NCBI GenBank assembly: GCA_964016885.1 | Contig: OZ024742.1 | Location: 127,844,001-127,908,000, forward strand | DNA: 64,000 nucleotides | Reading direction: 5' to 3' | Origin: Eledone cirrhosa | Taxonomy: Eukaryota | Shown here: positions 1,391 through 41,900 of the stretch, piece after piece | Layout: every line of letters starts with the position of its first letter | Numbering within the stretch: the first letter of the stretch is position 1 | The notes under the pieces: model-generated | The model's input: only the letters and a program-made list of their open reading frames with translations | What the model was told of the DNA's origin: nothing | Databases searched by the model: none | Position numbers and translations under genes: made by a program

Positions 1391-1607
1391 ATGGTTCGGA
1401 ATCAATCAGAGTCTTTTGAAGTGCCATCAGGCAATGAGAAACTTCAAAGAGGTTTCGTGACGAATGGTAGTCAAAGAAAGACCCGACAAAGTACACAATC
1501 AGCTCTTGTTGCCATGTCAGCATCTGTCTGGAGTGGATCCACCGCATATGATGCTTTCGGCCGAAACCGTGATGACACTGTTTTAACTCTTGATGGATTC
1601 AATTCTG
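1391..1607 (+). CDS. Formin coding exon 1 (MVRNQSESF...LDGFNS), phase-1 donor
   Basis: ATG at 1391 with in-frame upstream TGA at 1370 just after a ttatcttag acceptor; donor G|GTATGT at 1608; G+AT restores GAT (Asp) with exon 2. Linkage across a 38.9-kb intron is inferred from phase only. Confidence 0.65.
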
Positions 1608-4600
1608 GTATGTGCATATTATTTTTTTTATGTTTTGTTTTTATTAAATGCATACGATTAAACAGAATTTATTTAAAAATTATATTTTTTTAAAAATGGG
1701 AGAAGGGACATATTCTCAATTACATGCCACAAGGGGCGTCGGAGTTTCCCTCTTATCATTTTTAAGCAAGCCAACACAACATTGCCAAGAGTGACACCGA
1801 GACTAAAGTGCTGGAATAGCCAAACACAATCGCGTGTATCACCTGATATCACGAAATCTTTGCACTTGCAGAAAGTAAACGGCACCTAGAAAATTGATCA
1901 GAATGACCGGGTATATTTTGTTTATTAAAATGTCAGCTTGTATTATTTTTAACGTTTTGTACTTTTGATCTGTATATCTCTTTGACAGAGGTGGTTCATA
2001 TTGACTGATGTGTTCATATTGACTGATGTGTTCACATTGACTGATGTGTTCATATTGACTGATGTGTTCACATTGACTGATGTGTTCACATTGACTGATG
2101 TGTTCACATTGACTGATGTGTTTATATTGACTATTGACTGATGTGTTCACATTGACTGATGTGTTCACATTGACTGATGTGTTCACATTGACAGAGGTGT
2201 TTCACATTGACTGATGTGTTCACATTGACAGAGGTGTTTCACATTGACTGATGTGTTCACATTGACTGATGTGTTCACATTGACTGATGTGTTCACATTG
2301 ACTGATGTGTTTATATTGACTGATGTGTTCACATTGACTGATGTGTTCACATTGACTGATGTGTTCATATTGACAGAGGTGTTTCACATTGACTGATGTG
2401 TTCACATTGACAGAGGTGTTTCACATTGACTGATGTGTTCATATTGACTGATGTGTTCACATTTACTGATGTGTTCACATTGACTGATGTGTTCACATTG
2501 ACAGAGGTGTTTCACATTGACTGATGTGTTCACATTGACAGAGGTGTTTCACATTGACTGATGTGTTCACATTGACAGAGGTGTTTCACATTGACTGATG
2601 TGTTCATATTGACTGATGTGTTCACATTGACTGATGTGTTCACATTGACTGATGTGTTTATATTGACTGATGTGTTCACATTGACTGATGTGTTCACATT
2701 GACTGATGTGTTCATATTGGCTGATGTGTTCACATTGGCTGATGTGTTCACATTGACTGATGTGTTCACATTGACTGATGTGTTTATATTGACTGATGTG
2801 TTCATATTGACTGATGTGTTCACATTGACTGATGTGTTCACATTGACTGATGTGTTCACATTGACTGATGTGTTCACATTGACTGATGTGTTCATATTGA
2901 CTGATGTGTTCATATTGACTGATGTGTTCACATTGACTGATGTGTTCACATTGACAGAGGTGTTTCACATTGACTGATGTGTTTATATTGACTGATGTGT
3001 TCATATTGGCTGATGTGTTCATATTGGCTGATGTGTTCACATTGACAGATGTGTTCACATTGACTGATGTGTTCACATTGACTGATGTGTTCATATTGAC
3101 AGATGTGTTCATATTGAAAGATATACATTACATATTTGGCATGGTTTCTATGGCTGGATGCCCTTCCTAACATAGCCACTTCAGTGTGTTTACTGGGTGC
3201 ATTGCGATACCAGCACAACCACTTTACACAGTTGACTAGGTATATTCTATCAAAGCACCAACACTAACAATTTACAGGATGTACTGAGTGCATTTTATCG
3301 TGGGACTAGTACTAACGAGGTCATCACATGCTCGTTGTCAAAGTGATAAATTAAAAAGTTCAGCAGAGGGCATAAATAAATTGATACGGCCATCGCTGTC
3401 ATCCCACTGCGGGGCACCCGATGCAGTTGCCACATTTGTCCCCCCCCCCTCCTATTAAATCCAGCCCTCGTTAAGGGACGGCATGGTTACTATAGTTTTT
3501 TTTCTTTTTTTGCCTTTGTATGTCAGTATTGTTATTCACAGTTATATAGATAACATTGTGAATTGTTCACAATTCTTTCAGAATGAAAATCTAAACGCAT
3601 AATGAATATATTAACTACTAGCATTAAAGCCCGGCGTTGCTCGGGGTCATTAAGTTACCAAAGTTAGGTTGCAGCACTTTTTTGTCTGCCAGGCACTGGG
3701 TGAATGAATTGCAGACCTGGAAGCAGGAGCTGTGCCAGCAGTGACAATTGTAGTTTCGCCTATGGATATTATCTCTGTGCAAAAAAGTGTTGAAATTTAT
3801 TGTTTCACAGTACTTGCGCAACACGCGCGTAGACGATGCCAGCCGAACAACAGAGCTGCGATGGAGTTGTTCTGCATGGTTGTCTGCGTGTTTTCTAAAT
3901 TTAAGACAGTAGGGAGGGTTGTGATATGAGGGAGAGTTAGCTGTTGTTTCTAGCAGGTTTAGTGACCTCATAGAGGATATGTGTTTTCTAAATTTAAGAC
4001 AGTAGGGAGTGGTGTGATATGGGGGAGAGTTAGCTGCTGTTTCTAGCAGGTTTAGTGACCTCATAGAGGATATGTTTTCTAAATTTAAGACAGTAGGGAG
4101 GGGTGTGATATGAGGGAGAGTTAGCTGCTGTTTCTAGCAGGTTTAGTGACCTCATAGAGGATATTATTGTTTATCATCTATATATATAAAACTGACTGCA
4201 CGCCTAACGAAATTTACAGATACATATATTTTAAATAAACTTATATAATTTTTGCTTTTTTTTACGAAATATTTGCTTGTTTTACGTAGTCTTTAAATAG
4301 ACTTGTTTTCAAGTAAAAATTATTGTGTTAATGTCATTTTAAACGCTGAGAAAGCCAGCGTAATTTTTTTAATTTTTGCACGCAGACGCTCAATGTAAAC
4401 AGAACAAAGGGAAATAACTGATCACTTACGCTCAAAAATCGATACATTATATTCGATTTCGTCAGATAGGGCGGGTCAATTTGAAATATTTTTTTTCCGA
4501 TGTCTTCGCTAGGGCTCAATGTACAAGTATAGCAATTTCGGTGCAATTCCGTGAGAGATTCTAAGAGGAGATGTGTGCCAAAAATCGATAGACAGACAGA

Positions 4601-14976: not shown

Positions 14977-17900
14977 GGTTTAATCGATATAATTATATAT
15001 ATATATATATAATTCTGACGTCACCAGCCCTGTCTCCACATGTGCGTTTTATTTTCATAATTATGCATGATGTCGAACTAGCCTGCTTTTAAATTCCCTT
15101 TTTGGCATATTATAATCAGTGAGATTTTGGTTATCGTGTTGAGCTCTGCTGATGATCGAATCCAACCGTGACCATCCCCACTGAAAGTTTCGTGAAATAG
15201 TCTTTTCAAAACTATACAGAGCATTTGTAGTTTTTACAAATTGAAGGATGAGTATTTTAAACTTTATTTTATCATGAGTTAAGGCTCTATTGATTTTTCC
15301 CTGAATTTCACTAAATTCTGTTGGATGAATCTATATCCTGATTCTTTTTGAATTGAGTTTGAATTATTTTTCCCACATCTTACGTTAACTATTTTCCTAT
15401 TTTGACGCTATAGTCACTTATATATATTATGAAATACTGTGTGCTTCTTGCTCATAATAATTTCTATACTTTTCATTTATATATATATATAGTGAAGCAT
15501 ATAAACAATATGCCCCCCCCCCCCACCGCAAGGTGGTCGTGGAGGTGCCACGGCAAAAAAGCACCCAGCCCACACTGTAAAGTGGACGTGTAGGCGCCAC
15601 GAAAAAGCACCCAGCACTCACTGTAAATGAGGTTGGTGTTAGGAAGGGCATCCAGCTGTAGAAATCAAGCCAGATCAGTTCCTGTATGAGCAAGGCATGG
15701 TCAGCCGACCAGACACTGCCCACAACAGGACAACCCGTCTAACCCATGCTAGCGTGGAAGAACGGACGTAAAACGGTGATGATGATGATGATGATAGTAT
15801 ATTTAGGTTTAATCGATACATAAAAAGTATATCTCAATTATGTTTCTCAATAAAAAAAAAAATCTCCATGAACATTCGTTCAGGGCATCATTTATACAAG
15901 TTTGAACAATATATAAAAAGGGGTTTATATCAGTTGAGAAACTATTAGTATTTTGTACAGAGCAAATAATATGTAAGTAAATATACTTACTTCAAATAAT
16001 TGTTTCTACTTTTGGCACAAGGCCAGCAATTAAATCAGTACATTACTGGTACTTTATTTTATCGACCCCGTAAGGATGAAAGGCAAAGTGAACCTCGGTG
16101 GGATTTGGACTCAGATCATAAAGGGGCATAACACTATGCTGCAAAGCATGGCATCCAACCTTCTACCGATACTGCCAATTCCCCCAAATAATATACTTAC
16201 TTCAAATAATATAATTACTTCAAGATGGTAACAAGCTTAGAATTCCTAAAGAATTCTAGGCTTGTTACCATCTTGAAGTATATTTACTTATATATCAATT
16301 GCTCTGTGTATATATATACAAAATACTAATAGTTTCTCAATTGATATATACATACACACATTATTTATTTTTTAAAGTTTGTTTTGCAATTAATTTCTAG
16401 CTAATCTCTTGTCTTCTAAAAAGGTCAATTTTCTCTCTCTCTCCCTCTCTCTCCCTCTCTCTCTCCACACCCACACACATCCATACATACATTCACAAGA
16501 AAAATAAACTCTACAAGTTTGGCGTGGGACTTCACCAAGTTGTCTCACACTTAATGAGAGAATTACTTGTTTATTGGGAAACTGGGAGACTACACTAATT
16601 AATAACACACTCTATATTAATTAACAACTCACTTTACACTAATTTATATTACACCCGACACTAATTAATGACACATCATCATCACCTTTTAACATCCATT
16701 TTTCCATGCTAGCATGGGTTAAGTCATACAGAACTGTTTCTGGTTTGGTTTCTACAGCTGAATGCCCTTCTTAATGCCAACCACATTTACAGTATGGACT
16801 GGGTGCCTTTTATAATGGCACCGACATAACTACTTTACAGTATGGACTGGACAGTTTTTGTTATGTCACCTACACAACCACTTTACAATGTGGATTGGGT
16901 GCTTTTTATCATATCACCAGCAGCAAAACCACTTTACATTGTGGACTGGGCACCTTTTGCTGTGGTCCCAAAGTAACAACTTTGCAGTGTGGATTGGATG
17001 CTTGGCACCAAAATGGCCACTTTTTGTCCATCATGACCCCCTTATAGGTTGGACTAGATGCTTTTATCATGACTGCATCACAACCACTTTACTAGGTTGG
17101 CTGAGCACTTTTGTCATATTACCAACCCACCCACTAATTAATAACACACCCTACACTAATTAATAACACACCCTACACTAATTAATAACATACCCTACAT
17201 GTAGGATGTTGGAATTGATCCCAAGACCAGTTAGTGTATTGTGTTCTTCAGCATATCACTACATTTCACATTATTCCAAACCATTCAGCTGAAAAAATAA
17301 CATCAAAAAGTTGGGGGTTGAACCTTGGGGTGGGGTTGATGGTGCTTAATGTGTGATGGAACTGGGATATGCTATGGGCTGCTAAGCCTCTAGGTGTAAA
17401 ACAATGCTTTCTTATAGATAGGTGGGTATAAAATATTTTATATATGTAATGAAGGAATGAAAGAAGATTATCAGATTATGCTGCAAAGAACCATGGAGAA
17501 GTGGACATAAAATGATGATGATGATAAGGGAAGGGAAAGCAAAGACAATCCATACCTGTAAAGATATCAGAACAATGAAGTAAATTAAATAAATATATAG
17601 CTGAGATATCTATTAGAGCTGCTAGCTTCAACTCTCAACAAATAAAAATGGAAAGTATTTTTGGTGACAGTAGGCAGGATTTGAACTCAGACTACACAGA
17701 GCCAGAACAAATACCACAAGGCATCCCATCCAGCACTTTAACAATTCCTCTAACCCACTGCCTCTGACTGGAACTTTATTTGATGCAGGTTAATCTCTGT
17801 AGGATTTGATTTCAGTGCACAGAACCAGAACAAATATTGTGAAGCTGATGCTCTAATGACTGCAAAATGTGTAATAGAAATTAAAAAATTACACTAAATG

Positions 17901-20900
17901 AATGTTCCTCCTTCATTATGAAAGAGGAGCCTCACTTCATGCACATACAATGAAATGAAGAGCAATGAAAATAATTCAGTTTTATGTCTGTGTGCATGAA
18001 GAAGGCTTGTTAAGGCAATTTTCACTTTGAATAGCCTAGGGTAATGAAGGCAGGAAATGCTGGACTGTGGGCCAATTTGAAGGTTTGAAGTTACGGCTTT
18101 TCTCTTTTCCTTTTTCCTTTTCTGTTGCTCTATGCACCCTGCTTCATAGCTGTTGACCATGGAGCAAACAAGAGACCTCCATAGAGATCTGTCCTGAACT
18201 GGAATTTCTCAAGCATGATGCTGGCTTTTGCAGCTTTTCAGACTTTCTTTCACAGAGTCCTTGTAGAGTTTTTGCAGTCTTTCCTGAGAATGCCTTCCCT
18301 TTTGGAGTTTGCAATGATAAAGTTTCTTTCAAGGAGCAATAATTTAAAAAATAATTCTACTATTTATTATATACTAATTGAAAATCACATGCTATGAATA
18401 CATACGCACTGACACAATTAGAGTGATATTTCAAGATATTTACTGCCTTGCATTACCTTTATTATAGAAATAATTTGTAACATGAGGACTTAATGAATTA
18501 TGAAATAAAACTTCCTTATTTACTGTTTTGACTGCTTCCTTTATGATGAGATAAATATATTTTTTAATTAGTAGATATCACCTTGGAAAATTTATTTTCA
18601 AGTTTGTATTTCTGATATTTTCACACCAATTAAATGAATTCACATGCATTGGAAAAAAAAAAACACTGTAATACCAGCTGTCAGTCCTGATTTTTTGCAT
18701 GTATTTGCAACATAAATAATGTATGCCTAATAATTTTTTTAATATGGGATTGCAAATAAACATTTTAGATATAATCTAATTTAATTAGATGGCAAGTATT
18801 TATTCCAGTTGCTTGCTTTCTGAGTTCAAGTCCTGCTGTAGTCAATCTTGCTTTTCATCATTGATAAATAAAGTACCAGTTTAGAGAAGTAGACTGGGAT
18901 AATTATTAGAGCATCAGTATTTGTTCTTTAAGTTATGAGTTCTAATCCCTCCCTGGCTTAATTCCATACTAGGTTACAAGCATTTCGGAAAGGTTTCTGA
19001 TTTGCATACACCTTCCTTCCTGCAGATTCTTGATGTAAATCCTAACAAAGCATTATTTGTATCCTTTCTAAATATTGCAGTCATGAGAAAAATAAGCTAA
19101 ACGTTTAAAAGTTAGATAAGAGTTTGAAAAATTACTTTCCTCAATGTGAAAATATTTAATGTTGTTTAATTCAAGAATTAATATTTTAGAATTATATTCT
19201 ATAATTAAAAGTTGTAGTTTTAGAATTCTTACTAGATCAGGAATAAGTCTCAAAGTTTCATAGGATTGAATAATTATGATTGTTATTGAAACAGGTGTGT
19301 GTGAAAGTAGTGAACTTGAAGAGTATTGTTTGAGAGTACCTTAAGGTACACTTGGATAGTATGATGGGGTACATTCGTATTCGATGGGTAATAAATAAAA
19401 AATAAACCAAATTGAAATGAAATTCTTTCTTTTTTATATCTAGAATAATAATGGGTTAAATATCACATAAATGGTTTTTCAACTTGATTTATAATGATGT
19501 TTTGATTCATTAATTAATTTAATCTAACATTATTTCTGATATAATGGCATCAATAAAACAGTCAAGTACTTAACATTATAGTGGCAAATAGTGTAGAAAC
19601 AGTTATTTTAGTGCTGTAGAAACAGTTATTTTAGTAGTGTAGAAACAGTTATTTTAGTGGTGTAGAAACAGTTATTTTAGTGCCGTAGTAACAGTTATTT
19701 TAGTAGCATAGAAACAGTTATTTTAATGGTGTAGAAACAGTTATTTTAGTGGTTAGAACCAGTTATTTTAGTAGTGTAAAAACAGTTATTTTAGTGGTGT
19801 AGAAACAGTTATTTTAGTGATGTAGTAACAGTTATTTTAGTGCTGTAGAAACAGTTATTTTAGTGCTGTAGAAACAGTTATTTTAATAGTTTAGAAATAT
19901 AGTTCTTTTAGTGTTGTAGAAACAATTATTTTAGTAGTGTAGAAACAGTTATATTAGTGCTGTAGAAACAGTTATTTAAGTAGTGTAGAAACAGTTATTT
20001 TAATGGTTAGAAACAGTTATTTTAGTGGTGTAGAAACAGTTATATTAGTGGTGTAGAAACAGTTCTTTTAGTGGTATAGAAACAGTTATTTTAGTGCTGG
20101 AGAAACAGTTATTTTAGTAGTGTAGAAACAGTTATTTTAGTGGTTAGAAGCAGTTATTTTAGTGGTTAGAACCAGTTATTTTAGTAGTGTAGAAACAGTT
20201 ATTTTAGTGGTGTAGAAACAGGTATTTTAGTAGTGTAGAAACAGTTATATTAGTGGTGTTGAAACAGTTCTTTTTAGTGGTATAGAAACAGTTATTTTAG
20301 TGCCGTAGTAACAGATTTTTACTGGTGCAGAAACAGTTATTTTAGTGCCGGAGTAACAGTTATTTTAGTAGTGTAGAAACAGTTCTTTTTATGGTATAGA
20401 AACAGTTATTTTAGTGCTGTAGAAACAGTTATTTTAGTAGTGTAGAAACAGTTATTTTAGTAGTGTAGAAACAGTTATTTTAGTGCTGTAGTAACAGGTA
20501 TATTAGTAATGTAGAAACAGTTATTTTAGTGCTGTAGAAACAGTTATTTAAGTAGTGTAGAAACAGTTATTTTAATGGTTAGAAACAGTTATTTTAGTGG
20601 TGTAGAAACAGTTATATTAGTGGTGTAGAAACAGTTATTTTAGTAGTGTAGAAACAGTTATTTTAGTGCCATAGTAACAGTTATTTTAGTAGTGTAGAAA
20701 CAGTTATTTCAGTGCTGTAGAAACAGTTATTTTAGTGCCGTAGTAACAGTTATTTTACTGGTGTAGAAACAGTTATTTTAGTAGTGTAGAAACAGTTATT
20801 TCAGGGGTGTAGAAAGAGTTAATTTAGTGGTGTTGAAACAGTTATTTTAGTAGTGTAGAAACAGTTATTTTAGTGGTGTAGAAACAGTTATTTTAGTGGT

Positions 20901-23900
20901 GTAGAAACAGTTGTTAATGTGCTGTAGTAACAGTTATTTTAGTGCTGTAGAAACAATTATTTTAATAGTTTAGAAATATAGTTATTTTAGTGTTCTAGAA
21001 ACAATTATTTTAGTAGTGTAGAAACAGTTATATTAGTGGTGTAGAAACAGTTCTTTTTAGTGGTATAGTAACAGTTATTTTAGTGTTGAAGAAATAATTA
21101 TTTTAGTAGTGTAGAAACAGTTATATTAGTGGTGTTGAAACAGTTCTTTTTAGTGGTATAGAAACAGTTATTTTAGTGCCGTAGTAACAGATTTTTACTG
21201 GTGCAGAAACAGTTATTTTAGTGCCGGAGTAACATTTATTTTAGTAGTGTAGAAACAGTTCTTTTTATGGTATAGAAACAGTTATTTTAGTGCTGTAGAA
21301 ACAGTTATTTTAGTAGTGTAGAAACAGTTATTTTAGTAGTGTAGAAACAGTTATTTTAGTGCTGTAGTAACAGGTATATTAGTAGTGTAGAAACAGTTAT
21401 TTTAGTGATGTAGAAACAGTTATTTAAGTAGTGTAGAAACAGTTATTTTAATGGTTAGAAACAGTTATTTTAGTGGTGTAGAAACAGTTATATTAGTGGT
21501 GTAGAAACAGTTATTTTAGTAGTGTAGAAACAGTTATTTTAGTGCCGTAGTAACAGTTATTTTAGTAGTGTAGAAACAGTTATTTCAGTGCTGTAGAAAC
21601 AGTTATTTCAGTGCCGTAGTAACAGTTATTTTACTGGTGTAGAAACAGTTATTTTAGTAGTGTAGAAACAGTTATTTCAGGGGTGTAGAAACAGTTAATT
21701 TAGTGGTGTTGAAACAGTTATTTTAGTAGTGTAGAAACAGTTATTTTAGTGGTGTAGAAACAGTTATTTTAGTGGTGTAGAAACAGTTGTTAATGTGCTG
21801 TAGTAACAGTTATTTTAGTGCTGTAGAAACAATTATTTTAATAGTTTAGAAATATAGTTATTTTAGTGTTGTAGAAACAATTATGTTAGTAGTGTAGAAA
21901 CAGTTATATTAGTGGTGTATAAATAGTTATTTTAGTGGTATAGAAACAGTTATATTAGTGGTGTAGAAACAGTTCTTTTTAGTGGTATAGAAACAGTTAT
22001 TTTACTGCCGTAGTAACAGCTTTTTTACTGGTGTAGAAACACTTATTTTAATAGTGCAGAAAGAGTTATTTTAATGGTGTAGAAACAGTTAATTTAGTGG
22101 TGTTGAAACAATTATTTTAGTAGTGTAGAAACAGTTATTTTAGTGGTGTAGAAATAGTTATTTTAGTGATGTAGTAACAGTTATTTTAGTGGTGTAGAAA
22201 CAGTTATATTAGTGGTGTAGAAACAGTTATTTTAGTAGTGTAGAAACAGTTATTTTAGTGCCGTAGTAACAGTTATTTTAGTAGTGTAGAAACAGTTATT
22301 TCAGTGCTGTAGAAACAGTTATTTTAGTGCCGTAGTAACAGTTATTTTACTGGTGTAAAAACAGTTATTTTAGTAGTGTAGAAACAGTTACTTCAGGGGT
22401 GTAGAAACAGTTAATTTAGTGGTGTTGAAACAGTTATTTTAGTATTGTAGAAACAGTTATTTTAGTGGTGTAGAAACAGTTATTTTAGTGGTGTAGAAAC
22501 AGTTGTTAATGTGCTGTAGTAACAGTTATTTTAGTGCTGTAGAAACATTTATTTTAATAGTTTAGAAATATAGTTATTTTAGTGTTGTAGAAACAATTAT
22601 TTTAGTAGTGTAGAAACAGTTATATTAGTGGTGTATAAATAGTTATTTTAGTGGTATAGAAACAGTTATATTAGTGGTGTAGAAACAGTTCTTTTTAGTG
22701 GTATAGAAACAGTTATTTTACTGCCGTAGTAACAGCTTTTTTACTGGTGTAGAAACAGTTATTTTAATAGTGCAGAAACAGTTATTTTAATGGTGTAGAA
22801 ACAGTTAATTTAGTGGTGTTGAAACAATTATTTTAGTAGTGTAGAAACAGTTATTTTAGTGGTGTAGAAATAGTTATTTTAGTGATGTAGTAACAGTTAT
22901 TTTAGTGCTGTAGAAACAGTTATTTTAGTGCTGTAGAAACAGTTATTTTAATAGTTTAGAAATATAGTTCTTTTAGTGTTGTAGAAACAATTATTTTAGT
23001 AGTGTAGAAACAGTTATATTAGTGGTGTAGAAACAGTTCTTTTAGTGGTATAGAAACAGTTATTTTAGTGCTGTAGAAACAGTTATTTAAGTAGTGTAGA
23101 AACAGTTATTTTAGTGCTGTAGTAACAGGTATTCTAGTAGTGTAGAAACAGTTATTTTAGTGCTGTAGAAACAGTTATTTTAGTAGTGTGTAGAAACAGT
23201 TATTTTAGTGGTTAGAAACAGTTATTTTAGTGGTTAGAACCAGTTATTTTAGTAGTGTATAAACATTTATTTTAGTAGTGTAGAAACAGTTATTTTAGTG
23301 CCATAGTAACAGTTATTTTAGTGTTGAAGAAATAATTATTTTAGTAGTGTAGAAACAGTTATTTTAGTAGTGTAGAAACAGTTATTTTAGTAGTGTAGAA
23401 ACAGTTATTTTAGTGCTGTAGTAACAGGTATATTAGTAGTGTAGAAACAGTTATTTTAGTGCTGTAGAAACAGTTATTTAAGTAGTGTAGAAACAGTTAT
23501 TTTAATGGTTAGAAACAGTTATTTTAGTGGTGTAGAAACAGTTATATTAGTGGTGTAGAAACAGTTATTTTAGTAGTGTACAAACAGTTATTTTAGTGCC
23601 GTAGTAACAGTTATTTTACTGGTGTAGAAACAGTTATTTTAGTAGTGTAGAAACAGTTATTTCAGGGGTGTAGAAACAGTTAATTTAGTGGTGTTGAAAC
23701 AGTTATTTTAGTAGTGTAGAAACAGTTATTTTAGTGGTGTAGAAACAGTTGTTAATGTGCTGTAGTAACAGTTATTTTAGTGCTGTAGAAACAATTATTT
23801 TAATAGTTTAGAAATATAGTTATTTTAGTGTTGTAGAAACAATTATTTTAGTAGTGTAGAAACAGTTATATTAGTGGTGTATAAATAGTTATTTTAGTGG

Positions 23901-26900
23901 TATAGAAACAGTTATTTTAGTGTTGTAGAAACAGTTATTTTAGTAGTTTAGAAACAGTTATAACGTGATTTATAATGATGCTGTTTTCAAGTTTTACCTA
24001 ATGCAATACAAAGATTCAAGACATTTTATTACATCATCATCATCATCATCATTTCATTTTACGTCCGCTTTTTCCCTGCTTGCAAGGGTGGGACGGGAAC
24101 TGATTCTGACTTGATTTCTACAGCTGGATGCCCTTCCTAACACCAACCTCATTTACAGTAAGTGCTGGGTGCTTTTTGCTGTGGCACCTCCACGACCACT
24201 TTGCAGTGGAATGATATGGACCCTAGTCCCTATCATCTCATTTCTACAGCTGAGTAAACTGGAGCAATGTGAAATAAAATGTCTTGCTCAAGGAAACAAC
24301 ACATCACCAGGTCTGAGAATTGAACTCACAACCTTTCGATTGCAAGGCCAATGCTCTAACCACTAAGCCATGTGCCTCCATATAAATACATTTTCTTTTT
24401 ATTCACTATGATAAAGTTTATGGCAGAGTTAGCATTTTTGTTGTTTTTGCTGGTGGTGTTGTTCCTAGTGGTGGTATTGTTGATGCTGTTGTTATCAAGA
24501 TTGTTGCTGTTGTTTAACTCCAGAGCAGTCTTGTTTGAGTAGTTTTATCATCAAAGGCATTCCAGCCATATCTTGTTATTTTCTGAAGGTGGAATTGTGT
24601 AACGTGATGAGATAAACACTTCCCTCAGAAATATTTATCTCCTATTTCATTCCTTATTAAAAGCCTACACACCATCTCATGTATGGTGTAGAAACATGTT
24701 TCATGGCCAAGGTGTTCTGTCCTACGTAATCTATATTAATATGTAAATAATCTGTGACGTGAGAATTTAAGAACAATAACCAAACCAAATAGTGGTTTAA
24801 CTGCAGTATTACTCTGGTCTTCAGCCATTCTGATCACATAAATATATATTTATTTTCTAATTAATTATAAGACTTTTGGGAGTTAGTTTTTTTACTTAAC
24901 GGAATAAATTATTTTGGTGATTCATTTAGTTTATTGTGAACATTGTGTATCTAGAACCACATTACAAAATATTTCCTTTAACCCTTTAGTATTTGCATTG
25001 TATTTTCGTGGTAAAGGCTTTATCTTACATAATTATCTCAAATATTATCAAATTTATGAGATTTTGATATTATTTATTTTGAGAACAATACTTTAACATT
25101 GGTATGAGCGACCGGTTATGGCCGGTTTAAACAGAAGAGGTGAGAGAATTCTGGCTGGATATAGCTGGTTTGAATGTAAAGGATTAAAAAAATACTAGGG
25201 TGTGATTTGGGTGAGATTTTGCTAATTTTTTTTTAAAGCCTTTACAAAACACTAAAAAAAAAAACTGTCTTTGGATTTTGCTTTGAACATCAAATTCAGA
25301 ATCTACAAAAAAAAAAAAAAAAATTAAATAATTTGTTTTATGTCGGGAACTGATTAAGGATAGGGAATAACTTGTATAGTTGCAGTATTTTTCGTTTTTC
25401 ATATATATTAATATATTTCATTCATATTCGAAGTGTATTATTTTGTTGCATTGGCAGTATCGGTAGAGGGCCGGACGCCATGCAAAGAGTTACGGCCCTT
25501 TATGGTCTAAGTTCAAATCCTGCCAAGGTTAACTTTGCCTTTCATCCTTACGGGGTCGATAAAATAAAGTACTACACTGGAATAATTGCTGGCCTTGTAC
25601 CAAAAGAAGAAACAATTATTTTGTTTGCATTAGAAAGCATTAGTTGTTTAAGTTTATGAAAATTAAATATGATGTTATTTCAGTTTTTATTTCAAGAATT
25701 AAAATATACTTTGAACTGCAAACAAGATCATCATCATCATCATCATCATCGTCGTCGTCGTCATCGTCGCCGTCATCATCATCATCATTATCATCATCAT
25801 TTTAACATCCACTTTCCCTGCTAGCAAGGATTGGATGGTTCTACATAGACCAAATCAATACTGAAGCAGTGGCTACTGATCTCCCAGACAGGCCAGGGAT
25901 CTGTCATCTCGCTTATGTATGGTTGTGCACAGGGGAGGTTGCCATGTCTTTGACACAACTGAGGCTCCTCATGACTCTTTGTTTGGCAAGATTTCTATCA
26001 CCAACCACTTCACAGGGGAACAGCAGCTAAGAGCATGTGTGGGGAGGGTCATGGGGTGTTTGAGAGGTTTAAATAAATCTGTGCTAGAACAAATAAGTCC
26101 CCATCTATGTTGAGTCTTCTATATTTGTGACATCATAAAGTGTGAATCATTGATTAGAAACATAATCTGAATATCAGAATGTTTTAGTTTAATTGGTAAT
26201 ATTTTCTGAAGGTGGAATTGTGTAACGTGATGAGATAAACACTTCCCTCAGTAATATTTATCTTCTATTTCATTCCTTATTAGAAGCCTACACACCATCT
26301 CATGTGTGGTGTAGAAACATGTTTCATGGCCAAGGCCTGCTGTCCTACTTAATCTATATTAATATGTAAATAATCTGTGACGTGAGAATTTAAGAACAAT
26401 AACCAAAACAAATACTGGTTTAACTGCACTATTACTCTGGTCTTCAGCCATTCTGATAACACACATACACGTATATATATATATATATTTATTTATTTAA
26501 TTAATTAATTAGTACATCACTCTAATTTATTTATACAAAAACAGGTTTTGCAATCTTTATAAAACAAAACAAAAATCAACATAAAACCTCTTATAATTAC
26601 CCTCCCCCACAGGCCATCTCACGTGTGGCGTAGATACACGTTTCATGGCCAAGGTCGACTAATTAATTAAATAAATATATATGTATATATATGTGTGTAT
26701 GTGTGATCAGAATGGCTGAAGACCAGAGTAATACTGCAGTTAAACCAGTATTTGTTTCTGTCATTGTTCTTAAATTCTCACGTCACAGATTATTTACATA
26801 TTAATATAGATTATGTAAGACAGCAGACCTTGGCCATGAAACATGTTTCTACACCACACGTGAGATGGTCCATGGGATTTTGATAAGTAGCAAGATCGCA

Positions 26901-29900
26901 AGAAATTGAACTTGCAAATTTAAATAGAATTTTTTAAAACAATAGATGAGGAATAATGAAAGAGGTTTTATGTTGGTTTTTGTTTTGTTTTATAATGACT
27001 GTAAAACCTGTTTTTGTATAAATAAATTAAAGAGTGATGTACTGAAAGTTATATGTATAAAACTTTTAATCTCTTTTAATTGAAGAAAAATAAATTCAAA
27101 GACCCCAAGACAATTGTTAGTGATGCATAAAGAAAAGGGGGATATCATCCCAAGAAATTAAAAATTAATTTCCCAGAGTTCCTTTATACACTTAGAGGAA
27201 CGCCTGATGTTTATTTGCAGGCAAGGGATAAAATATGGGATAGTCATCATCATCAGCAGTAGTAGTAGCAGCAGCATACTTTTATGTTTCTATGCCATCA
27301 TTCCCAGCCCACACTTAAAGTGGTTGTGTAGGTGTCACAACAAAAAGCATCCAGTCCACACTGTAAAGTGGCATGTAGGTGGCATTATAAAAAGCACCCA
27401 GTACACTGTAGCCCTTAACCTAACCCTAACCCAACTACCAAGTAATTAAACAAGGGATTAAGGAATATTTTGAAATATAATTTGTCTAATTAATTTTACT
27501 GTTCAACTCAACACATTTTAAAACATAAAACAACAGATCTTGTAGGATAATTATTTGTCCATTTCTGTTTATATTGATAACCAGTCATTATCATTCAGTT
27601 TACCATTTTGTTTTTGTTTAATATTGTTATATTGAAAAAGGAAAAGAGAAAAGTGTATTAGAAAAACTAGCTCTCTGAGATCAGGGGATAATTTGTTGTT
27701 AGAATAATACAAAAAAGAAAAACATGTGAGAGGCAAGGAGGTCTCTGAGTGATAATTTGTGGAAATTAAGAACTTTATGTAATCTTTGGTATGGAGTTTT
27801 TAGAGGAAGAATGGTGAGTATGAGTGATGAGCAGTTGAACAATGAGTATAAGCTTTCAATTTAAGGTATGACAGTTTGCATTCACCAAGTTTTTAAGAGC
27901 AGAATTGATTATAATAAAGATATAAATAGAGTGAAGATGCAATGAGACAGATGAAAAAAATGTCAAAGATTTTACAAAAGATAAGTAAGATATATTGAAG
28001 AGGTGAGTGGCTTAAAGATTACAAAGACCGCATTATTTCTAATATGGGAGCATTAATTTATTGTCACATAAAGATGATATATTTCTTGGTTTCTTATGAG
28101 AGATTTTTGAAAATATATATTTTAGTTAGCATGAGTAGGGAGGGACACTTTTTGGCTGGAAGTTCTTTATGAGAATTGGTTGTGTAGTATGATTCTCTAA
28201 TTGTAATATATACACAACTGGAAATTACTTGGGACTGCTCAGGAGGCATGAGGTAAAAGGGTGTCAAAGTAGAAGAGATACCCTCCTAAACCCCCATCCC
28301 CCTGATAAAAGGAATAAATTTTAAAATTATATAGATTCCAATTACATGTCTATTTAAATGTATTCAAACATTTACCAGTAATAATAATTACTGTTACTGA
28401 AACTTACTCAAACAAAAAATAAAATTTAATAATCAAATTTAAGAACTCATTAATTAAAATGAAGAAACATAAAAGTTTCTCTATTTTCAGAACATAAGCC
28501 CATTTCTTGCAGGCTTCTATATGTTATATAGTAAAATCAACCTTATTTTGTCATCACATGCTCTCAAGTAGTAGCTCCATAATTGTGATTAATTATATGC
28601 ACTTTCAGTTCACAATATGAAATTACATTATAGATAATTGGTATTGACTGATTAGGCATGGCTTATTAATTAGTAATCAGCAAATTTTCTTATCAGTGCA
28701 TCCCTACTGAATACATACAACATTTTAAAACAATGGTATAACCCCTTTGAAATCAGCTGTGTGTTCTATAAATAATTATAAGGCATATTAAAAGTAGACC
28801 AAAATAAAGAAAATTCATTTAGCCCTCAATTTCTAAAACAAAGCACCTCCTATACAAGTAACGTGATTCTATGGACATATGACCTTTAGCTATATTTAAG
28901 ACACAAGTCACGAGTCAAAATTCACGAGATACAAGTCACACTGGTTTCTTATATTCAAGACCTAAAAGTTTGTATGCAAGTAAGAAAATATATTTGCACT
29001 ATATTACCCTACAATTGTTTTGATCTCTTAATTGGTTTCAAAATCCTGTATATATTTAATTGTTAAGTATCTGTGTGGGAAAATAAATTTTCAGGGTCAC
29101 TGCTGTAGTTACTAAAATGATGTGTGAATTTCTCACTCATAAGTACAAGACAATAGGGTTGTGTATACTTTTTCAGGTTTTTAGTTTTATTTATATTTTT
29201 AGGCTTATAATTATTCCTATATTCATTTCTTCGTAAGAAATTAATTATACTAATTTTTTTCTTTTGTTTTCTTTTTTAATTACCATAATTAATTCCTCTA
29301 CATATATATGGTATTCAACTTTGATTTTATCTTCATTCAGACCTTTGCAATCTGATGAATTTGACATAGCCAAGCTTTTTCTCCAACCTTACAGGATATT
29401 TTTTCCAACATTCTCCTAGTCATCATGGAAGCAGTATCTGTGTTCTTAGCCAAACGTGGTAAATCCTGAATTTGTTGCAATCTTGTTTCATTTGTTTTAA
29501 TCTGTTTTGTTAGTAATAACATATTAATAATTAGTTATTATTTTATTATTTAATCATATTATATATTTTCTCTTTTTGATTTTCTTTGGAGTTCAAAATG
29601 ATATTATGCAGAAACTTCCAGATACCAAAGACTGTAATAATGCAATTGTTCTAACACACATTCTCTGATAAAATCAATTGTTAAATAAATACAATCCAAT
29701 TTACAATCTGACTGATACCTATATTACATTGATATACCACAGTAACAAATCCTTGACCAAACTTCAGATTTATTATCTGAAACTGAATGCCCAATATCTA
29801 TTGTAACATAAATATTTAAAACAAGAATTTAACCAACTAATAATGTTGAATATATAAGGAGCAACATAAACTTGAAAATTAATTTTCTAGTTTGACATCT

Positions 29901-32900
29901 TCTAATCATCACAAACGATGTAGTTAAGATTGTTACATGAATATTTAAAACAAGAATTTAGCATTTACATTACTCTATATTTACTATTGTATTTTCATGG
30001 TAAAGGCTTTATCTTACATAATTATCTCAATCATAGTATCGAATATTTTAATATTATTTATTTTGAGAAGAATACCTTAACATCAGCCGGGTTGAAAATA
30101 AAGAGGTGAGAGAATTCTGGCCATATATAGCCGGTTTAAATACTAAAGAGTTGAAGGGCAACAGAGAATGGCTTGAAAGGGATAGTAGGAAATAGATTTC
30201 ATGTTATATATATAAGAAACTGTTATCTATTGATAGTTCATAGTAGTATCACCAACTGTTTTAACTGGATTTTTACACCACTAAAATAACTGTTACTACA
30301 CCACTAAAATATCTGTGTTTCTACACCACTAAAATAACTGTTACTACACCACTAAAATAACTGTTTCTACACCACTAAAATAACTGTTACTACATCACTA
30401 AAATATCTATGTTTCTACACCACTAAAATAACTATATTTCTACACTATTAAAATAACTGTTTCTACACCACTAAAATAACTATATTTCTACACCACTAAA
30501 ATAACTGTTTCTACAGCACTAAAATAACTGTTACTACACTACTAAAATAACTATATTTCTACACCACTAAAATAACTGTTTCTACACCACTAATATAACT
30601 GTTTCTACAGCACTAAAATAACTGTTTCTACACTATTTGCCACTATAATGTTAAGTACTTGACTGTTTTATTGATGCCATTATATCAGAAATATGTTAGA
30701 TTAAATTAACTAATGAATCAAAACATCATTATAAATCAAGTTGAAAAACCATTTATGTGATATTTAACCCATTATTATTCTAGATATAAAAAAAAAGAAT
30801 TTCATTTCAATTTGGTTTATTTTTTATTTATTACCCATCGAATACGAATGTACCCCATCATACTATCCAAGTGTACCTTAAGGTACTCTCAAACAATACT
30901 CTTCAAGTTCACTACTTTCACACACACCTGTTTCAATAACAATCATAATTATTCAATCCTATGAAACTTTGAGACTTATTCCTGATCTAGTAAGAATTCT
31001 AAAACTACAACTTTTAATTATAGAATATAATTCTAAAATATTAATTCTTGAGTTAAACAACATTAAATATTTTCACATTGAGGAAAGTAATTTTTCAAAC
31101 TCTTATCTAACTTTTAAACGTTTAGCTTATTTTTCTCATGACTGCAATATTTAGAAAGGATACAAATAATGTTTTGTTTTGATTTATATCAAGAATCTGC
31201 AGGAAGGAAGGTGTATGCAAATCAGAAACCTTTCCGAAATGCTTGTAACCTAGTATGGCATTAAACCAGGGAGGGATTAGAACTCATAACTTAAAGAACA
31301 AATACTGATGCTCTAATAATTACCCCAGTCTACTTCTCTAAACTGGTACTTTATTTATCAATGATGAAAAGCAAGATTGACTATAGCAGGACTTGAACTC
31401 AGAAAGTAGATATAAGATATAATTCTAAAATATCAATTCTTGTGTTAAACAACATTAAATATTTTCACATTGAAGAAAGTAATTTTTCTATGAATCTTGC
31501 ACAAACTCAAACCCTTATCTAACAATTTTTAAAATGTTTAGCTTCTTTGTCTCTTAAATGCAAAGATTAGTTTGTCAGAGTTTATATCAAGAAATTATAC
31601 ATTTGTGTGAAAAAAATATATTTCACTATCTTGCTAGAAGCATACCATCCATTACCATGAACTCTTACAGATTTTATTTTGGCACAAAAATTAGCATGTT
31701 GGACAAAATGTCTTCAATCATTTCAGTTCAAATCCTGCTGAGGTCAACTTTACCTTTCATCCTTCTGGGGGTCGATAAAATAAAGTACCAATTAAGTAGT
31801 GGGTTTATTTAATTAGCTTTACCATTCCTTCAAAATTGTTAGTTTTGTGTCTATGTTAGAAACCATTAACCCTTTAGCATTTACATTACTCTATATTTTC
31901 TATTGTATTTTCACGTAAAGACTCTATCTCACATAATTATCTCACTTAATATCGAATCTATGCGATTTTGATATTATTTATTTTAAGAACAATACCTTAA
32001 CATCAATATGAGTGGCCAGTTATGGCTAGTTTGAACAGAGGTGAGAGAATTCTGGCCAGATTCAGCCAGTTTAAATGTAAAAGGGTTAAATATAACAGAT
32101 TATCTAAAACGCTTCTTTGAAACAAACATATAAGTCTTACACAATGTGATTATAAATAGGTGCAAAAAACAATAGAAAGTAAGACATGATATTAAAATGT
32201 TTTTCTTTTCTTTCAGATACATAATAAATGTAAATTAGTTCTTTTGAAAATAGAAATATTATAAATTTAGAAATTATTTTTCTAACGTGACATTTTCTCT
32301 CTCTCACACACACACACACACACTAAATATAGTTGTTAACTTTTGTTATATAGATGACATAAATAGCAGTGGGTGTACTGAGAGCATTGTAGCCAAATTA
32401 AAATCAGGATGGAAATAGTTCAGGGTGATATTATACTCTGTTAGTAACAAAGGCTTTCTCTTTGAGATTGATGTTTGTGTATGAACTCTGATGTTGAATG
32501 GCAGTGAGACGTGGGCCTTCAATATAAAGGATTTGCAAAGACTAGAAACAAATGAATTGAGCATGCTTTGCTGGATGTGTAATGTTAGAGTACACAAACA
32601 ACAATACAAAAAGTGGACATAAGAGAAGTTTGATTTAATATGCAAGAGAGAAGACTATTCTATTATAGGTAAGTGATGTGCATGGAGGATGAGAGCTGTA
32701 TAAAGATGTGCAGGACACTGAAAGTGAATAGAAGCCTGAGGAAGACATGGGATGAAGTGGTGAAGGTCAGCCTCAAGATTAAGGGTCTCGTGAAGGAGGT
32801 GACAAAGGAACATGATGATTGGTGACATGCAGTGCTGGAGAAGATCTCCTCACATGTGCAAACATACATACACAGAAACATACATACATATATACATACA

Positions 32901-38900: not shown

Positions 38901-41900
38901 CAGAAATTTTCCACCACTCCATATCTCTTCACCCACCTTAAATGATAACTCTGGAAGATGTATTAGTTGGTGAAGTTAATGATAGAGTAACATTACTTGA
39001 TAGAGTGTGTAGCTTGGAGATCAGAGAGTCACTCCAGGTAGAGTCGTACTTCTCCAAATTGAGAGATCACAGCTCCGATACTATGGGTATATGGTTAGAA
39101 TGTCTCAGGAAAGGATCGCTGGACAGATTTTATGGGCAAAACCAACCGGCAAGAGACCCAGGGGTAGACGCCGAGCAAGATGGTTGGATAACATTCATTT
39201 ATATGGTTATAAATTATACAAACATATATATCAGCTGGAGACAGTTGCTTCTAACAGGATCTGCTCGAAGGGATGTTTCAGGACTCTGCCCCATGACTCT
39301 CTTAGGATTATGTGGGTGAAGAAGAAAAAGAAGTTAATGATGGTCAGGGTATTGGGACATTGATATCATGATGCTGCTTTGATTCTTTGAGTTGATTTAT
39401 TAACCCTTTAGCATTTACATTACTCTATATATACTATTGTATTTTTATCTCACATGTTTTCGAATCTACAAGATTTTGATATTATTTATTTTGAGAACAA
39501 TACTTTAATGTCTGTATGAGTAGCCAGTTATGGTTGGTTTGAAAAGAAAGAGGTAAGAGAATTCTGGTCAGATACAGCCGGTTTAAATGCTAAAGGGTTA
39601 AATCATTCTCTTTTCTGTTTTGTTGTAATATGACTTTTTTTCTTGTTGTATACATACATTTGCAATCTTTGAAGTGTTATTGAAAATGAAATAATTTCAG
39701 TAACTTGTTCTTAAATACAAATGAACACCATTTCATTTGTTGTTTGTTTTTTTTTATCTATCCTGGGAGGATTATATTGTCCATTGGTTTAGCTTGAAGC
39801 AACAAATGAAAGCAAACATTAAATCTGGCATTATGCCTGAGCTTTTGTTGAATATGTTTGTTTCGAGACTAGCTGAAAGTGTTGAAAGAATAGACTAAAT
39901 CCACTAGAAAGATCTTAGAAACAAGTTGTTGAATGTACACAACACTAAACTCTGTTTTTTGAAATGTTAATACAAGATTCAAGTTGAATCACTGTATGGA
40001 AGGAAGCTATTTTGGTATTAGGGCTTAGTGTAATTCTATTTCAAACAATCAGCTTTTGAAATAAATCTTCCTTTTGAATATTTGAATATTTTAGCAAATG
40101 GTTTAACATTATTTCTTTTACATTTATACATAACTTAACTTTTATTGTTTTATTTAATTGAATTTTTTTTTATGGATTAAACTTAATAAATTGAACATTT
40201 ATTTATGTCCAAATTATAGTTTCAAAAATTAAGAATCCTATATACATTTAGAGATACTATGGTAAATTTCATCTTCAAATTAGATATCTAAATTTTAAGA
40301 AACTGATTCTTTAGAATGTTTTAGAATTTAGCATGAGTTGATAATTTCTCATATAAATGGTAGGTAAGACAAAATACCTGTCACTAACTTAAACTAAATG
40401 AGTTTTTCATATTTAAATTATGTTCCATTGAATCTGTTGATTTTTTAATGTTTTCAGTTTAAATTATTGGTGTTATTTTATATTTTAGATCTTCAAGAAA
40501 CTGAGACTGATGTTGACTTTATTGAGACAAGTCCATCTTCTTCAACTAATTCGTCCAACAGGTTTTTCAATTCATTATTATCTTCATCACATGATGGTGG
40601 CCAATCATCTGATCTGGACTCTTCTGGAGTACATAGTGGCAGTTTCTCGACCAGTAGTTCACCAAAAGATAAAAATGGAAAAGATTCTGATAGAGATTCA
40701 GGACGCCTTTCCATACCAGATTCTATCAGTCAATATTCTTTAACTGAAACAATATCAGCTTGGGATATTTCTATGCCTTCAGTTTCTCCTGCCACTTCAC
40801 ATCTGAATTTACATTATTCAGAAGATGACTTGACTGATTTGAAATTTTATGGCAAAACAGCTAAGAAAGATAGAATTCTTTCAAGGAAAAACAAAATAAT
40901 GATGTCTATTAAAACCTTCAAGAAGAAGATTATGAAATTGTCCAAAAACAGTCGAGATGTGGAAGATGAATCAGATCTTTCAAAGCCTTCTGAGGAATCA
41001 TTATTTCAGTGGGTGGTGGTAAGTAAAATATTGATATTTCCATGGAAAATAAATTTGATGTCATTTTGGTTAAATATAAAATGTAGCTTAAAAGTTTCTG
41101 AAATACTTGGAAATATTTTAATGAACTTCTTAATATTTTGTATTATATAAACTGTTTAATACAGTATGTTAGGACATCATTCTAGGAGAAGGGAAACTCT
41201 GATTTAAAACCTACGACTCAATGGCAGAAAATGATGTTGACTTGTTTCTTCTTTTTGGATACCTGTCACCATTGTTCACAGAGTGGGATTAATCCAGTGC
41301 AAGGGCTTTCTTCACTTAAAAACACTACAAGTACAGGCATCACTTGATCTAAATGACTTTCATATGTGCTATGTGAACACAATATGTTTTTTTAGTGTGT
41401 GTGTGAGTTTGTTTGAGTGTGAGTGTCTTTACATTGACATTACCTGAGCAGCCGATGGGTGTTTGTTTCATGGCTCAGCAGTTGGACACGAGAAATTTAG
41501 TGGTTCAAGTATTTGAAAAACTAAGGAAGCTTGCTATAAAATACTGCCCCAAAAGTCACATAAACCCATGCCGGCATGGAAAAACAAATGTAGGAATGAT
41601 GATGATAATGATATTTTATTAGAACTTAGGAATTTAAGATAGATGTCAGGCATGTAGTTTAAATATGTGCCTTTTGTACTGTCTACATTTACATAATAGT
41701 AGAATAGTCTTACAGAAACTTTACTTTGCTGGGATTTGAACTCAGAATGTAAAGAGATGTAACTAAATATTTCAAAGCCTTTTGTATGCCACCAAGCCAG
41801 TTTCTGCTACTCCATTACGTTAATAGTATTAATATTTACACTTTCGTTACCATATTTCTAAGAAAAGGCACATTGGGGGAAATTCAATAAAATAATAAAC

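What the first reader, a model, noticed from the sequence alone, without database searches (positions are those of the whole stretch)
18816..31406. 12.6-kb intronic inverted-repeat structure with asymmetric satellite-bearing arms
Seen: two ~775-bp unique arms (18816-19590 and 30633-31406) are near-perfect reverse complements, with only scattered substitutions and 1-nt indels. Each runs inward into the same 21-bp satellite, about 4.4 kb on the left and about 0.36 kb on the right, around a ~6.3-kb spacer. This layout resembles Foldback-type elements. However, the outer ends start inside a degraded SINE, and I see no TSD or transposase, so a recent local inverted duplication is at least as likely. 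Inference: formin pre-mRNA could form over 1 kb of dsRNA here (ADAR or endo-siRNA substrate), and the spacer could invert by recombination between the arms.
Basis: partly seen in the sequence, partly recalled or inferred. Interest (0 to 1): 0.75.

Follow-up and report, generated by a model that had tools for sequence, protein, structure and literature searches.

The report
Inverted repeat bracketing formin's alternative start
Two 775-base mirror-image copies, found only at this spot of an octopod genome, bracket the conserved start-codon exon of a short formin isoform; they are likely an old local duplication refreshed by copying between the arms rather than a Foldback transposon, and a flip between them would likely silence that one isoform.

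Summary
The inverted repeat is real: arms 18816-19590 and 30634-31406 differ at 12 of 775 columns. Short-read contigs, possibly from the assembly's own sample, collapse the arms at 1.5-1.9x depth. The satellite unit is 23 bp, not 21. It is not a Foldback element: no TSD, and arm, satellite and inner repeats are private to this locus in the 3.0-Gb genome. The main correction is that the spacer is not plain intron. It holds the ATG exon (29425-29458, MEAVSVFLAKR) that begins annotated formin isoforms in three Octopus species; only the long isoform reads both arms as intron 1. An 87%-identical remnant outside the right arm and satellite arrays far more diverged than the arms point to an older inverted duplication re-homogenised by gene conversion. 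A related species already has the satellite beside the exon. Predicted, untested: a ~775-bp pre-mRNA duplex (ADAR substrate), and rare inversion that would remove the short isoform. Known kind (human RHOH exon inversion, F8 intron 1). The scan noted a similar layout at FLNA in another genome. No RNA run was on record.

The parts
1391..1612 (+). First coding exon of the long formin isoform (MVRNQSES...); opens the ~38.9-kb intron 1 that contains both arms
   Evidence: tblastn of O. bimaculoides and O. sinensis X1 N-termini, 82-87% identity
18816..19590 (+). Left unique arm (775 bp); outer ~100 bp is a degraded SINE fragment
   Evidence: locus-private in G000
19591..23961 (+). Left satellite array, 23-bp unit, ~190 copies, 65 unit types, internal duplications at offsets such as 876 and 716 bp
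   Evidence: no other array in G000
24577..27043 (.). Older nested rearrangement in the spacer: 24577-24868 direct with 26200-26496 (273 identities, 19 mismatches); 26276-26470 inverted with 26695-26887 (178/15); 26511-26592 inverted with 26960-27043 (78/4); three copies carry the satellite's 12-nt core
   Evidence: 4 of 4 genome hits lie in the spacer
28980..28985 (+). Strong splice-donor-like site; candidate end of an upstream non-coding exon of the short isoform (inferred)
   Evidence: donor matrix score above 99.8% of intron-1 GT sites; no RNA evidence
29425..29458 (+). Alternative start-codon exon of the formin: ATG, MEAVSVFLAKR, phase-1 donor; in frame with the exon at 40488
   Evidence: matches N-termini MEAVSDFLSRH / MEVVTDFLSRH of 4 of 8 members of the Octopus cluster; frame; donor above 99.3% of intron-1 GTs
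30262..30633 (-). Right satellite array, ~16 units, own unit order, degenerate inner edge
   Evidence: satellite lies next to the exon-bearing segment in run X4 of organism B
30634..31406 (-). Right unique arm (773 bp), reverse complement of the left arm
   Evidence: collapsed contig 30606-31383 at raised depth in X1, X2, X3; outer junction bridged without differences
31411..31594 (-). Older remnant copy of arm interior (left 19027-19204), abutting the right arm's outer end
   Evidence: 138 identities, 21 mismatches, 44 gap positions; local score 201 against a shuffle maximum of 100 in 200 shuffles; third hit
40488..41018 (+). First exon shared by all isoforms (DLQETETD...)
   Evidence: 80% identity to O. 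bimaculoides formin-like 3

Best explanation
This is a locus-private inverted duplication inside intron 1 of a formin gene that brackets the start-codon exon of a conserved short isoform; it likely arose long ago by local repair or replication error and was likely overwritten more recently by arm-to-arm gene conversion, with no selected function. Steps: (1, shown) two 98.5% identical arms face each other across two unequal satellite arrays and a 6.3-kb spacer. (2, inferred) An older inverted copy existed, of which the 87% remnant at 31411-31594 and the separately evolved right array survive. (3, inferred) A break in the right copy was repaired from the left arm; synthesis ran from 39 nt inside the satellite out to 18816 and was joined back without homology at 31406/31407, leaving the remnant outside. 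(4, shown for structure, inferred for timing) The left array grew by block duplications of hundreds of bases. (5, predicted) The long-isoform pre-mRNA can fold the arms into a ~775-bp duplex that ADAR would edit, as it does repeat-derived intronic duplexes. (6, predicted) A crossover between arms would invert the spacer and remove the short isoform while leaving the long isoform's coding exons intact; a mutational liability rather than a switch.
For: Private to the locus: inner arm 3 of 3 hits, outer arm 2 of 2, satellite 35-mer 18 of 18, 19-mer 65 of 71 with 6 isolated single hits elsewhere and 2 control hits. Two real copies: arm contig depth 21.5 against a mean 14.2 for the 7 other listed X1 contigs, 14.7 against 7.8 for the 7 in X2, 12 against 6.6 for the junction contig in X3; X2's collapsed contig carries the left-arm letters at 31259 and 31265. 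Older layer: remnant at 87%; 9 of 14 right units are of types absent from 188 left units; longest exact right-in-left match is 49 nt against 86-178 nt for 11 of 11 left pieces within the left array; left units differ by 1.6 changes per unit from the nearest right unit. One 1237-nt contig of X4 (organism B, about 90% alike) joins the ortholog of 28708-29790 directly to satellite units in the right array's orientation (record 22, record 9). Exon conserved and in sense orientation. Ordinary process: 2 other locus-private inverted pairs (459 and 260 bp) among 15 inverted pairs in 984 kb. Duplex energy -1251 kcal/mol against -240 for one SINE pair in the same intron.
Against: The direction of copying is not established. 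SINE continuity past the left arm end was seen with 1 of 6 window copies, but larger tests did not separate left from right: 26 of 104 against 15 of 90 hits; two searches were not significant and leaned to the right flank. The substitution gradient (9 outer, 1 inner; Fisher p=0.02) vanishes when clustered changes are merged and indels counted (p=0.5), so only one overwrite is needed. Only 3 variant features are private to the right array, which fast minisatellite turnover after one recent duplication could also give. Whether organism B has two arms is unknown: an arm-like contig was laid (30933-31249) but not.
Confidence: 0.55

Rival explanations
1. One recent inverted duplication (for example right to left, by template switching) made the whole second arm and seeded the second array. 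The remnant is an unrelated older tandem duplication and the arrays diverged by fast minisatellite turnover. Neutral.
For: Arm divergence is compatible with uniform once clustered changes are merged. The right-side satellite is old (X4) and has a degenerate edge, so it could be the source. Few private variant features on the right. SINE-direction tests inconclusive.
Against: 16 variant features common on the left (5 or more units each) are absent from the 14 right units, and left units lie about 7% from the nearest right unit against 1.3% for the arms; this needs a much larger right array that later collapsed. Homogeneity stops 39 nt into the satellite.
Confidence: 0.28
2. A functional isoform regulator. 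The arms are kept alike by selection because pairing in the long pre-mRNA loops out the short isoform's exon and donor, or because the spacer flips as a polymorphic or somatic switch that turns the short isoform off.
For: The repeat brackets exactly the conserved start exon and its strong donors. It is the longest locus-private inverted pair in 984 kb. The layout seems to have persisted while sequence turned over, as described for nematode inverted repeats (PMC1803023, abstract) and the yeast flip/flop region (PMC9731477, abstract).
Against: No recombinase site or gene was seen. The exon is in sense orientation and the same isoform exists in three Octopus species, whose introns could not be examined. 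Gene conversion maintains identity without selection. The arms lie 1.2 kb and 9.8 kb from the exon. Inverted SINE pairs that could also pair are common (12 of 15 pairs).
Confidence: 0.08
3. A Foldback-type non-autonomous DNA transposon (unique flanking domain, tandem-repeat domain, middle domain).
For: The architecture matches Tetris: flanking domain up to 866 bp, tandem outer domain of variable copy number, non-coding middle (PMC4079207, passages). Unequal repeat numbers in the two arms.
Against: No TSD; single locus; ends lie in a SINE fragment; the middle holds a host exon conserved across Octopus; no transposase-like ORF stood out in six-frame listings (output was cut).
Confidence: 0.03
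4. Assembly artefact (false inverted duplication next to a satellite).
For: It lies beside a 4.4-kb satellite; no listed contig spans the structure; left junctions and array lengths unverified.
Against: Raised depth on the arm in 3 of 3 libraries of sample S1, both arms' letters seen, right outer junction bridged by 53 nt on the arm side with 0 differences in X1, X2 and X3.
Confidence: 0.04

Closest known systems
Human polymorphic inversions that hit alternative or first exons: HsInv0102 (RHOH alternative exon), HsInv0030 (CTRB1/CTRB2 first exon and promoter exchange); PMC4576756, passages seen
   Same: An intragenic segment holding an isoform-specific exon; inversion removes that exon from the transcript, as stated for RHOH. 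HsInv0030 is generated between inverted repeats.
   Different: No inverted allele is shown here. The exon is coding (start codon), whereas the RHOH exon is non-coding. The arms are non-coding and satellite-bearing, not gene paralogues.
F8 int1h-1/int1h-2 and the haemophilia A intron 1 inversion; PMC7507428, passages seen
   Same: Near-identical inverted copies tied to intron 1; crossover between them separates a 5' exon from the gene body. A liability, not a switch.
   Different: In F8 one copy lies about 126 kb outside the gene and the whole gene is broken. Here both arms lie in one intron 11 kb apart and only the short isoform would be lost.
Inverted repeats homogenised by gene conversion: recurrent human inversions (PMC3961182, passages), yeast chromosome XIV flip/flop (PMC9731477, abstract), Caenorhabditis repeats (PMC1803023, abstract), Y palindrome P6 (PMC3723533, search listing only)
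   Same: Arm identity higher than the apparent age of the structure; conversion and occasional spacer inversion expected.
   Different: Arms here are short (0.8 kb) and contain no genes; persistence across species and inversion polymorphism are not shown.
Foldback-structured transposons (Tetris, PMC4079207, passages; Galileo, search listing only)
   Same: Outer unique domain, inner tandem repeats of unequal number, non-coding-looking middle.
   Different: No TSD, single locus, ends in a SINE fragment, host exon in the middle: looks like one, is not one.
Repeat-derived intronic ADAR substrates in coleoids; PMC9068888, passages seen
   Same: Ubiquitously edited sites lie mostly in introns and 3' UTRs overlapping repeats; a long intronic duplex is the expected substrate.
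   Different: This duplex would be made of unique sequence and is longer and more perfect than local SINE pairs; editing was not observed.

Membership tests
Foldback-type DNA transposon (FB/Tetris/Galileo-like) | Long terminal inverted repeats with a unique outer domain and internal tandem repeats | tested here: met
   775-bp arms plus 23-bp arrays; definition from PMC4079207 passages
Foldback-type DNA transposon (FB/Tetris/Galileo-like) | Target-site duplication (8-10 bp in Tetris) | tested here: not met
   longest shared word in the 20-nt outer flanks is 4 nt
Foldback-type DNA transposon (FB/Tetris/Galileo-like) | Dispersed copies or related termini elsewhere in the genome | tested here: not met
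   all hits in the window; 18 of 18; 65 of 71, the other 6 isolated. The DNA search skips very common words, so this is a lower bound.
Foldback-type DNA transposon (FB/Tetris/Galileo-like) | Transposase in the middle domain or a cognate autonomous element | tested here: inconclusive
   no long coding-like ORF in the spacer; only one spacer ORF was scanned with Pfam, nothing at cut-off; non-autonomous copies lack one anyway
Inverted repeat homogenised by gene conversion | Arm identity higher than the age of the layout | tested here: inconclusive
   arms 98.5% against remnant 87% and arrays about 7% apart; satellite beside the exon in organism B; two arms in B not shown
Inverted repeat homogenised by gene conversion | Conversion tracts: paralogous variants exchanged between arms among individuals | not testable with these tools
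   RAD runs X6 and X7 gave 0 and 4 reads at 95% identity or more, too few
Inverted-repeat-mediated polymorphic inversion | High-identity inverted repeats flanking the segment | tested here: met
   perfect runs of 258, 119, 99 and 83 bp
Inverted-repeat-mediated polymorphic inversion | Both orientations observed in individuals or species | not testable with these tools
   no record spans arm plus both flanks; the exon is in sense orientation in this assembly
ADAR / endo-siRNA substrate hairpin | Both arms on one transcript and able to pair | tested here: met
   both in intron 1 of the conserved long isoform; 767 pairs, -1251 kcal/mol. Transcription itself is inferred from homology.
ADAR / endo-siRNA substrate hairpin | Clustered A-to-G edits or small RNAs on the arms | not testable with these tools
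   no RNA holder listed

The most novel reading that the evidence does not exclude
A long-lived, self-repairing inverted repeat makes the short formin isoform's start exon an invertible cassette: both orientations segregate in the population or arise somatically, giving a natural on/off allele for one isoform, and the long isoform's pre-mRNA uses the same arms as a 0.8-kb ADAR-edited clamp that hides the internal start exon.
Probability: 0.07. Interest if true: 0.7.

Novelty: new member of a known kind. Interest (0 to 1): 0.3.

Why it matters
As it most likely stands, it is a clean cephalopod example of an intragenic inverted repeat of the RHOH/F8 type. Its twelve arm-distinguishing sites make three things cheap to test: arm-to-arm conversion, spacer inversion, and long-range intronic editing in an animal group known for heavy ADAR activity. 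It would matter more if both orientations segregate, since that would be a natural isoform-specific knockout of an actin nucleator. It also shows that a Foldback-like outline can arise at one locus without a transposon.

Tried and rejected
Foldback family search: no dispersed copies. Exon-like reading frames on the minus strand of the spacer (29340-29534) gave no Pfam family at cut-off and turned out to be the antisense of the formin start exon. A candidate exon at 17579-17764 did not match any isoform N-terminus and contains SINE-like sequence; dropped. Pfam FH2 search of G000 listed 20 matches, none at this locus; the formin call rests. SINE continuity as a marker of the source arm: inconclusive (the BLAST failed on a parameter error and was rerun). 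A second, later conversion of the inner arm: not established. Expression and editing: no RNA holder listed. Run X5 (kind not on record) has a contig of depth 3.7 over 29387-29400, but its splice junction was not visible among repeat noise; not used as evidence. Arm status in organism B differed. Rfam: 0 matches at gathering score in 17500-33000. Literature: searches for octopus intronic inverted repeats with editing, repeat-flanked alternative first exons and cephalopod formin isoforms listed nothing on this locus; only listings were seen. No supplements were read. Introns of other octopods could not be fetched.
Full report
Observation. Self-BLAST finds one long inverted match, 18816-19951 against 31406-30262. 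The unique arms 18816-19590 and 30634-31406 differ at 12 of 775 columns: 10 substitutions and 2 one-base indels. The satellite has a 23-bp unit, with 189.7 copies at 19591-23961 and 15.4 at 30270-30633; 165 of 190 left units are 23 bp. The arrays are identical for only the first 39 nt and then align with 32 mismatches and 25 gap positions, no better than out of register. There is no TSD.

Is it real? Contigs of three libraries of sample S1, which may be the assembly's source, collapse both arms into one 778-nt contig (30606-31383). Its depth is 21.5 against a mean of 14.2 for the other 7 listed X1 contigs, 14.7 against 7.8 for the 7 in X2, and 12 against 6.6 for the junction contig in X3. X2's contig carries the left-arm letters at 31259 and 31265. 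The right outer junction is bridged with no differences in all three.

Is it a mobile family? No. In G000 (3.0 Gb) the inner arm has 3 hits, the outer arm 2 and the inner spacer repeat 4, all in the window. A satellite 35-mer has 18 of 18 exact hits here. A 19-mer has 65 of 71 here; the other 6 are isolated single hits, against 2 for the control. The architecture resembles Tetris (PMC4079207, passages), but TSD and dispersal both fail.

Host gene. The exon at 40488 retrieves formin-like 3 of Octopus bimaculoides (80%) and Argonauta (69%). tblastn maps the gene on the + strand from 1391 to about 75200, so the host is an octopod. The repeat lies in intron 1 of the long isoform. Four of the 8 members of the Octopus cluster start instead with MEAVSDFLSRH or MEVVTDFLSRH. 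The window encodes MEAVSVFLAKR at 29425-29458, inside the spacer, in sense orientation and in frame with the next exon. Its donor scores above 99.3% of intron-1 GT sites; another at 28980 scores above 99.8%. Where this isoform's transcription starts is not known; a promoter in the spacer is inferred.

History. Three levels of divergence lie side by side. (a) Arms: 1.3% substitutions. (b) A remnant at 31411-31594, touching the right arm's outer end, is an inverted copy of 19027-19204 with 138 identities, 21 mismatches and 44 gap positions. (c) Arrays: 9 of 14 right units are of types absent from the 188 left units, 16 common left variants are absent on the right, and the longest exact right-in-left match is 49 nt against 86-178 nt within the left array. 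In run X4 (organism B, 90 differences and 26 gap positions over about 1080 nt) one 1237-nt contig joins the ortholog of 28708-29790 to satellite units oriented like the right array, so the satellite beside the exon predates that split. The simplest reading is an old inverted duplication whose right unique arm was overwritten and extended from the left arm. Against this: tests of which arm is the source were inconclusive, the outer/inner substitution gradient (9 against 1, p=0.02) does not survive merging of clustered changes (p=0.5), only 3 variant features are private to the right array, and two arms in organism B are not shown. A single recent duplication with fast array turnover stays a serious rival. 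The spacer holds further nested duplications at 92-95% aligned identity, three of which carry the satellite's core, so the region has rearranged locally more than once.

How unusual? In 984 kb (the window with 120 kb of flank, and four 200-kb blocks: three at round coordinates, one around another formin-domain hit) there are 15 inverted pairs of at least 250 bp and 90% identity within 30 kb. Twelve are dispersed repeats; three are locus-private, and this one is the longest of the three (775 against 459 and 260 bp). The process is ordinary; the length and the exon inside are less so.

Consequences, all predicted. The arms can form a 767-pair duplex of -1251 kcal/mol, with perfect runs up to 258 bp. 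In squid, ubiquitous editing falls mostly in introns and 3' UTRs over repeats (PMC9068888, passages), so editing here is plausible and would be unremarkable. A crossover between arms would invert the start exon, as HsInv0102 does for a RHOH exon (PMC4576756, passages) and much as int1h recombination breaks F8 (PMC7507428, passages). Such inversions recur often in humans (11 of 16 analysed, PMC3961182, passages), though those repeats are mostly larger (recalled). No RNA run was on record and no second orientation could be tested.

Earlier notes of the scan list a palindrome-prone family and an arm-to-arm patch in this genome, and a repeat around the FLNA promoter in another genome. No look-alike of this sequence was listed. 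These are unchecked AI notes; my reading was set before I saw them.

Verdict. Real, not a Foldback element, not purely intronic. It is a new member of a known kind: an intragenic inverted repeat around an isoform-specific exon, likely neutral and refreshed by conversion. Interest 0.3. The switch reading has about 7% probability.

Noticed in passing
window 24577-27043: Four copies of a locus-private segment in direct and inverted orientation inside the spacer; three carry the 12-nt core of the satellite unit, a possible source of the satellite or a shared relic.
   Followed up: partly
window 23963-23980 and 19482-19499: The 18 nt just after the left array's sharp inner end nearly repeat a stretch of the inner arm; possible templated junction, significance not tested.
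   Followed up: no
G000:C2:117748282-117753256 (L072-L073): A 1967-bp inverted pair at 96.6% with a 1049-bp spacer, made of sequence repeated in other blocks; no obvious TSD in a quick look. A better Foldback-like candidate than this finding.
   Followed up: partly
G000:C2:117789677-117791085 and 117743347-117747400: Two further locus-private inverted pairs (459 bp at 94%, 260 bp at 98%).
   Followed up: no
window 12272-13929, 57270-59038, 1982-3117: Other intronic minisatellites in the same formin gene: 33-bp unit x50 at 98%, 21-bp x84, 18-bp x62.
   Followed up: no
window 29790-30261: About 470 bp between the exon-bearing segment and the right array, including a dispersed repeat, appear absent in organism B, whose contig joins 29790 directly to satellite.
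   Followed up: partly
window 29394-29458 and 29420-29458: Pyrimidine-rich AG sites just upstream of the alternative ATG; the one before 29420 would give a 39-nt in-frame cassette for the long isoform. None of the 8 Octopus cluster members shows it.
   Followed up: partly
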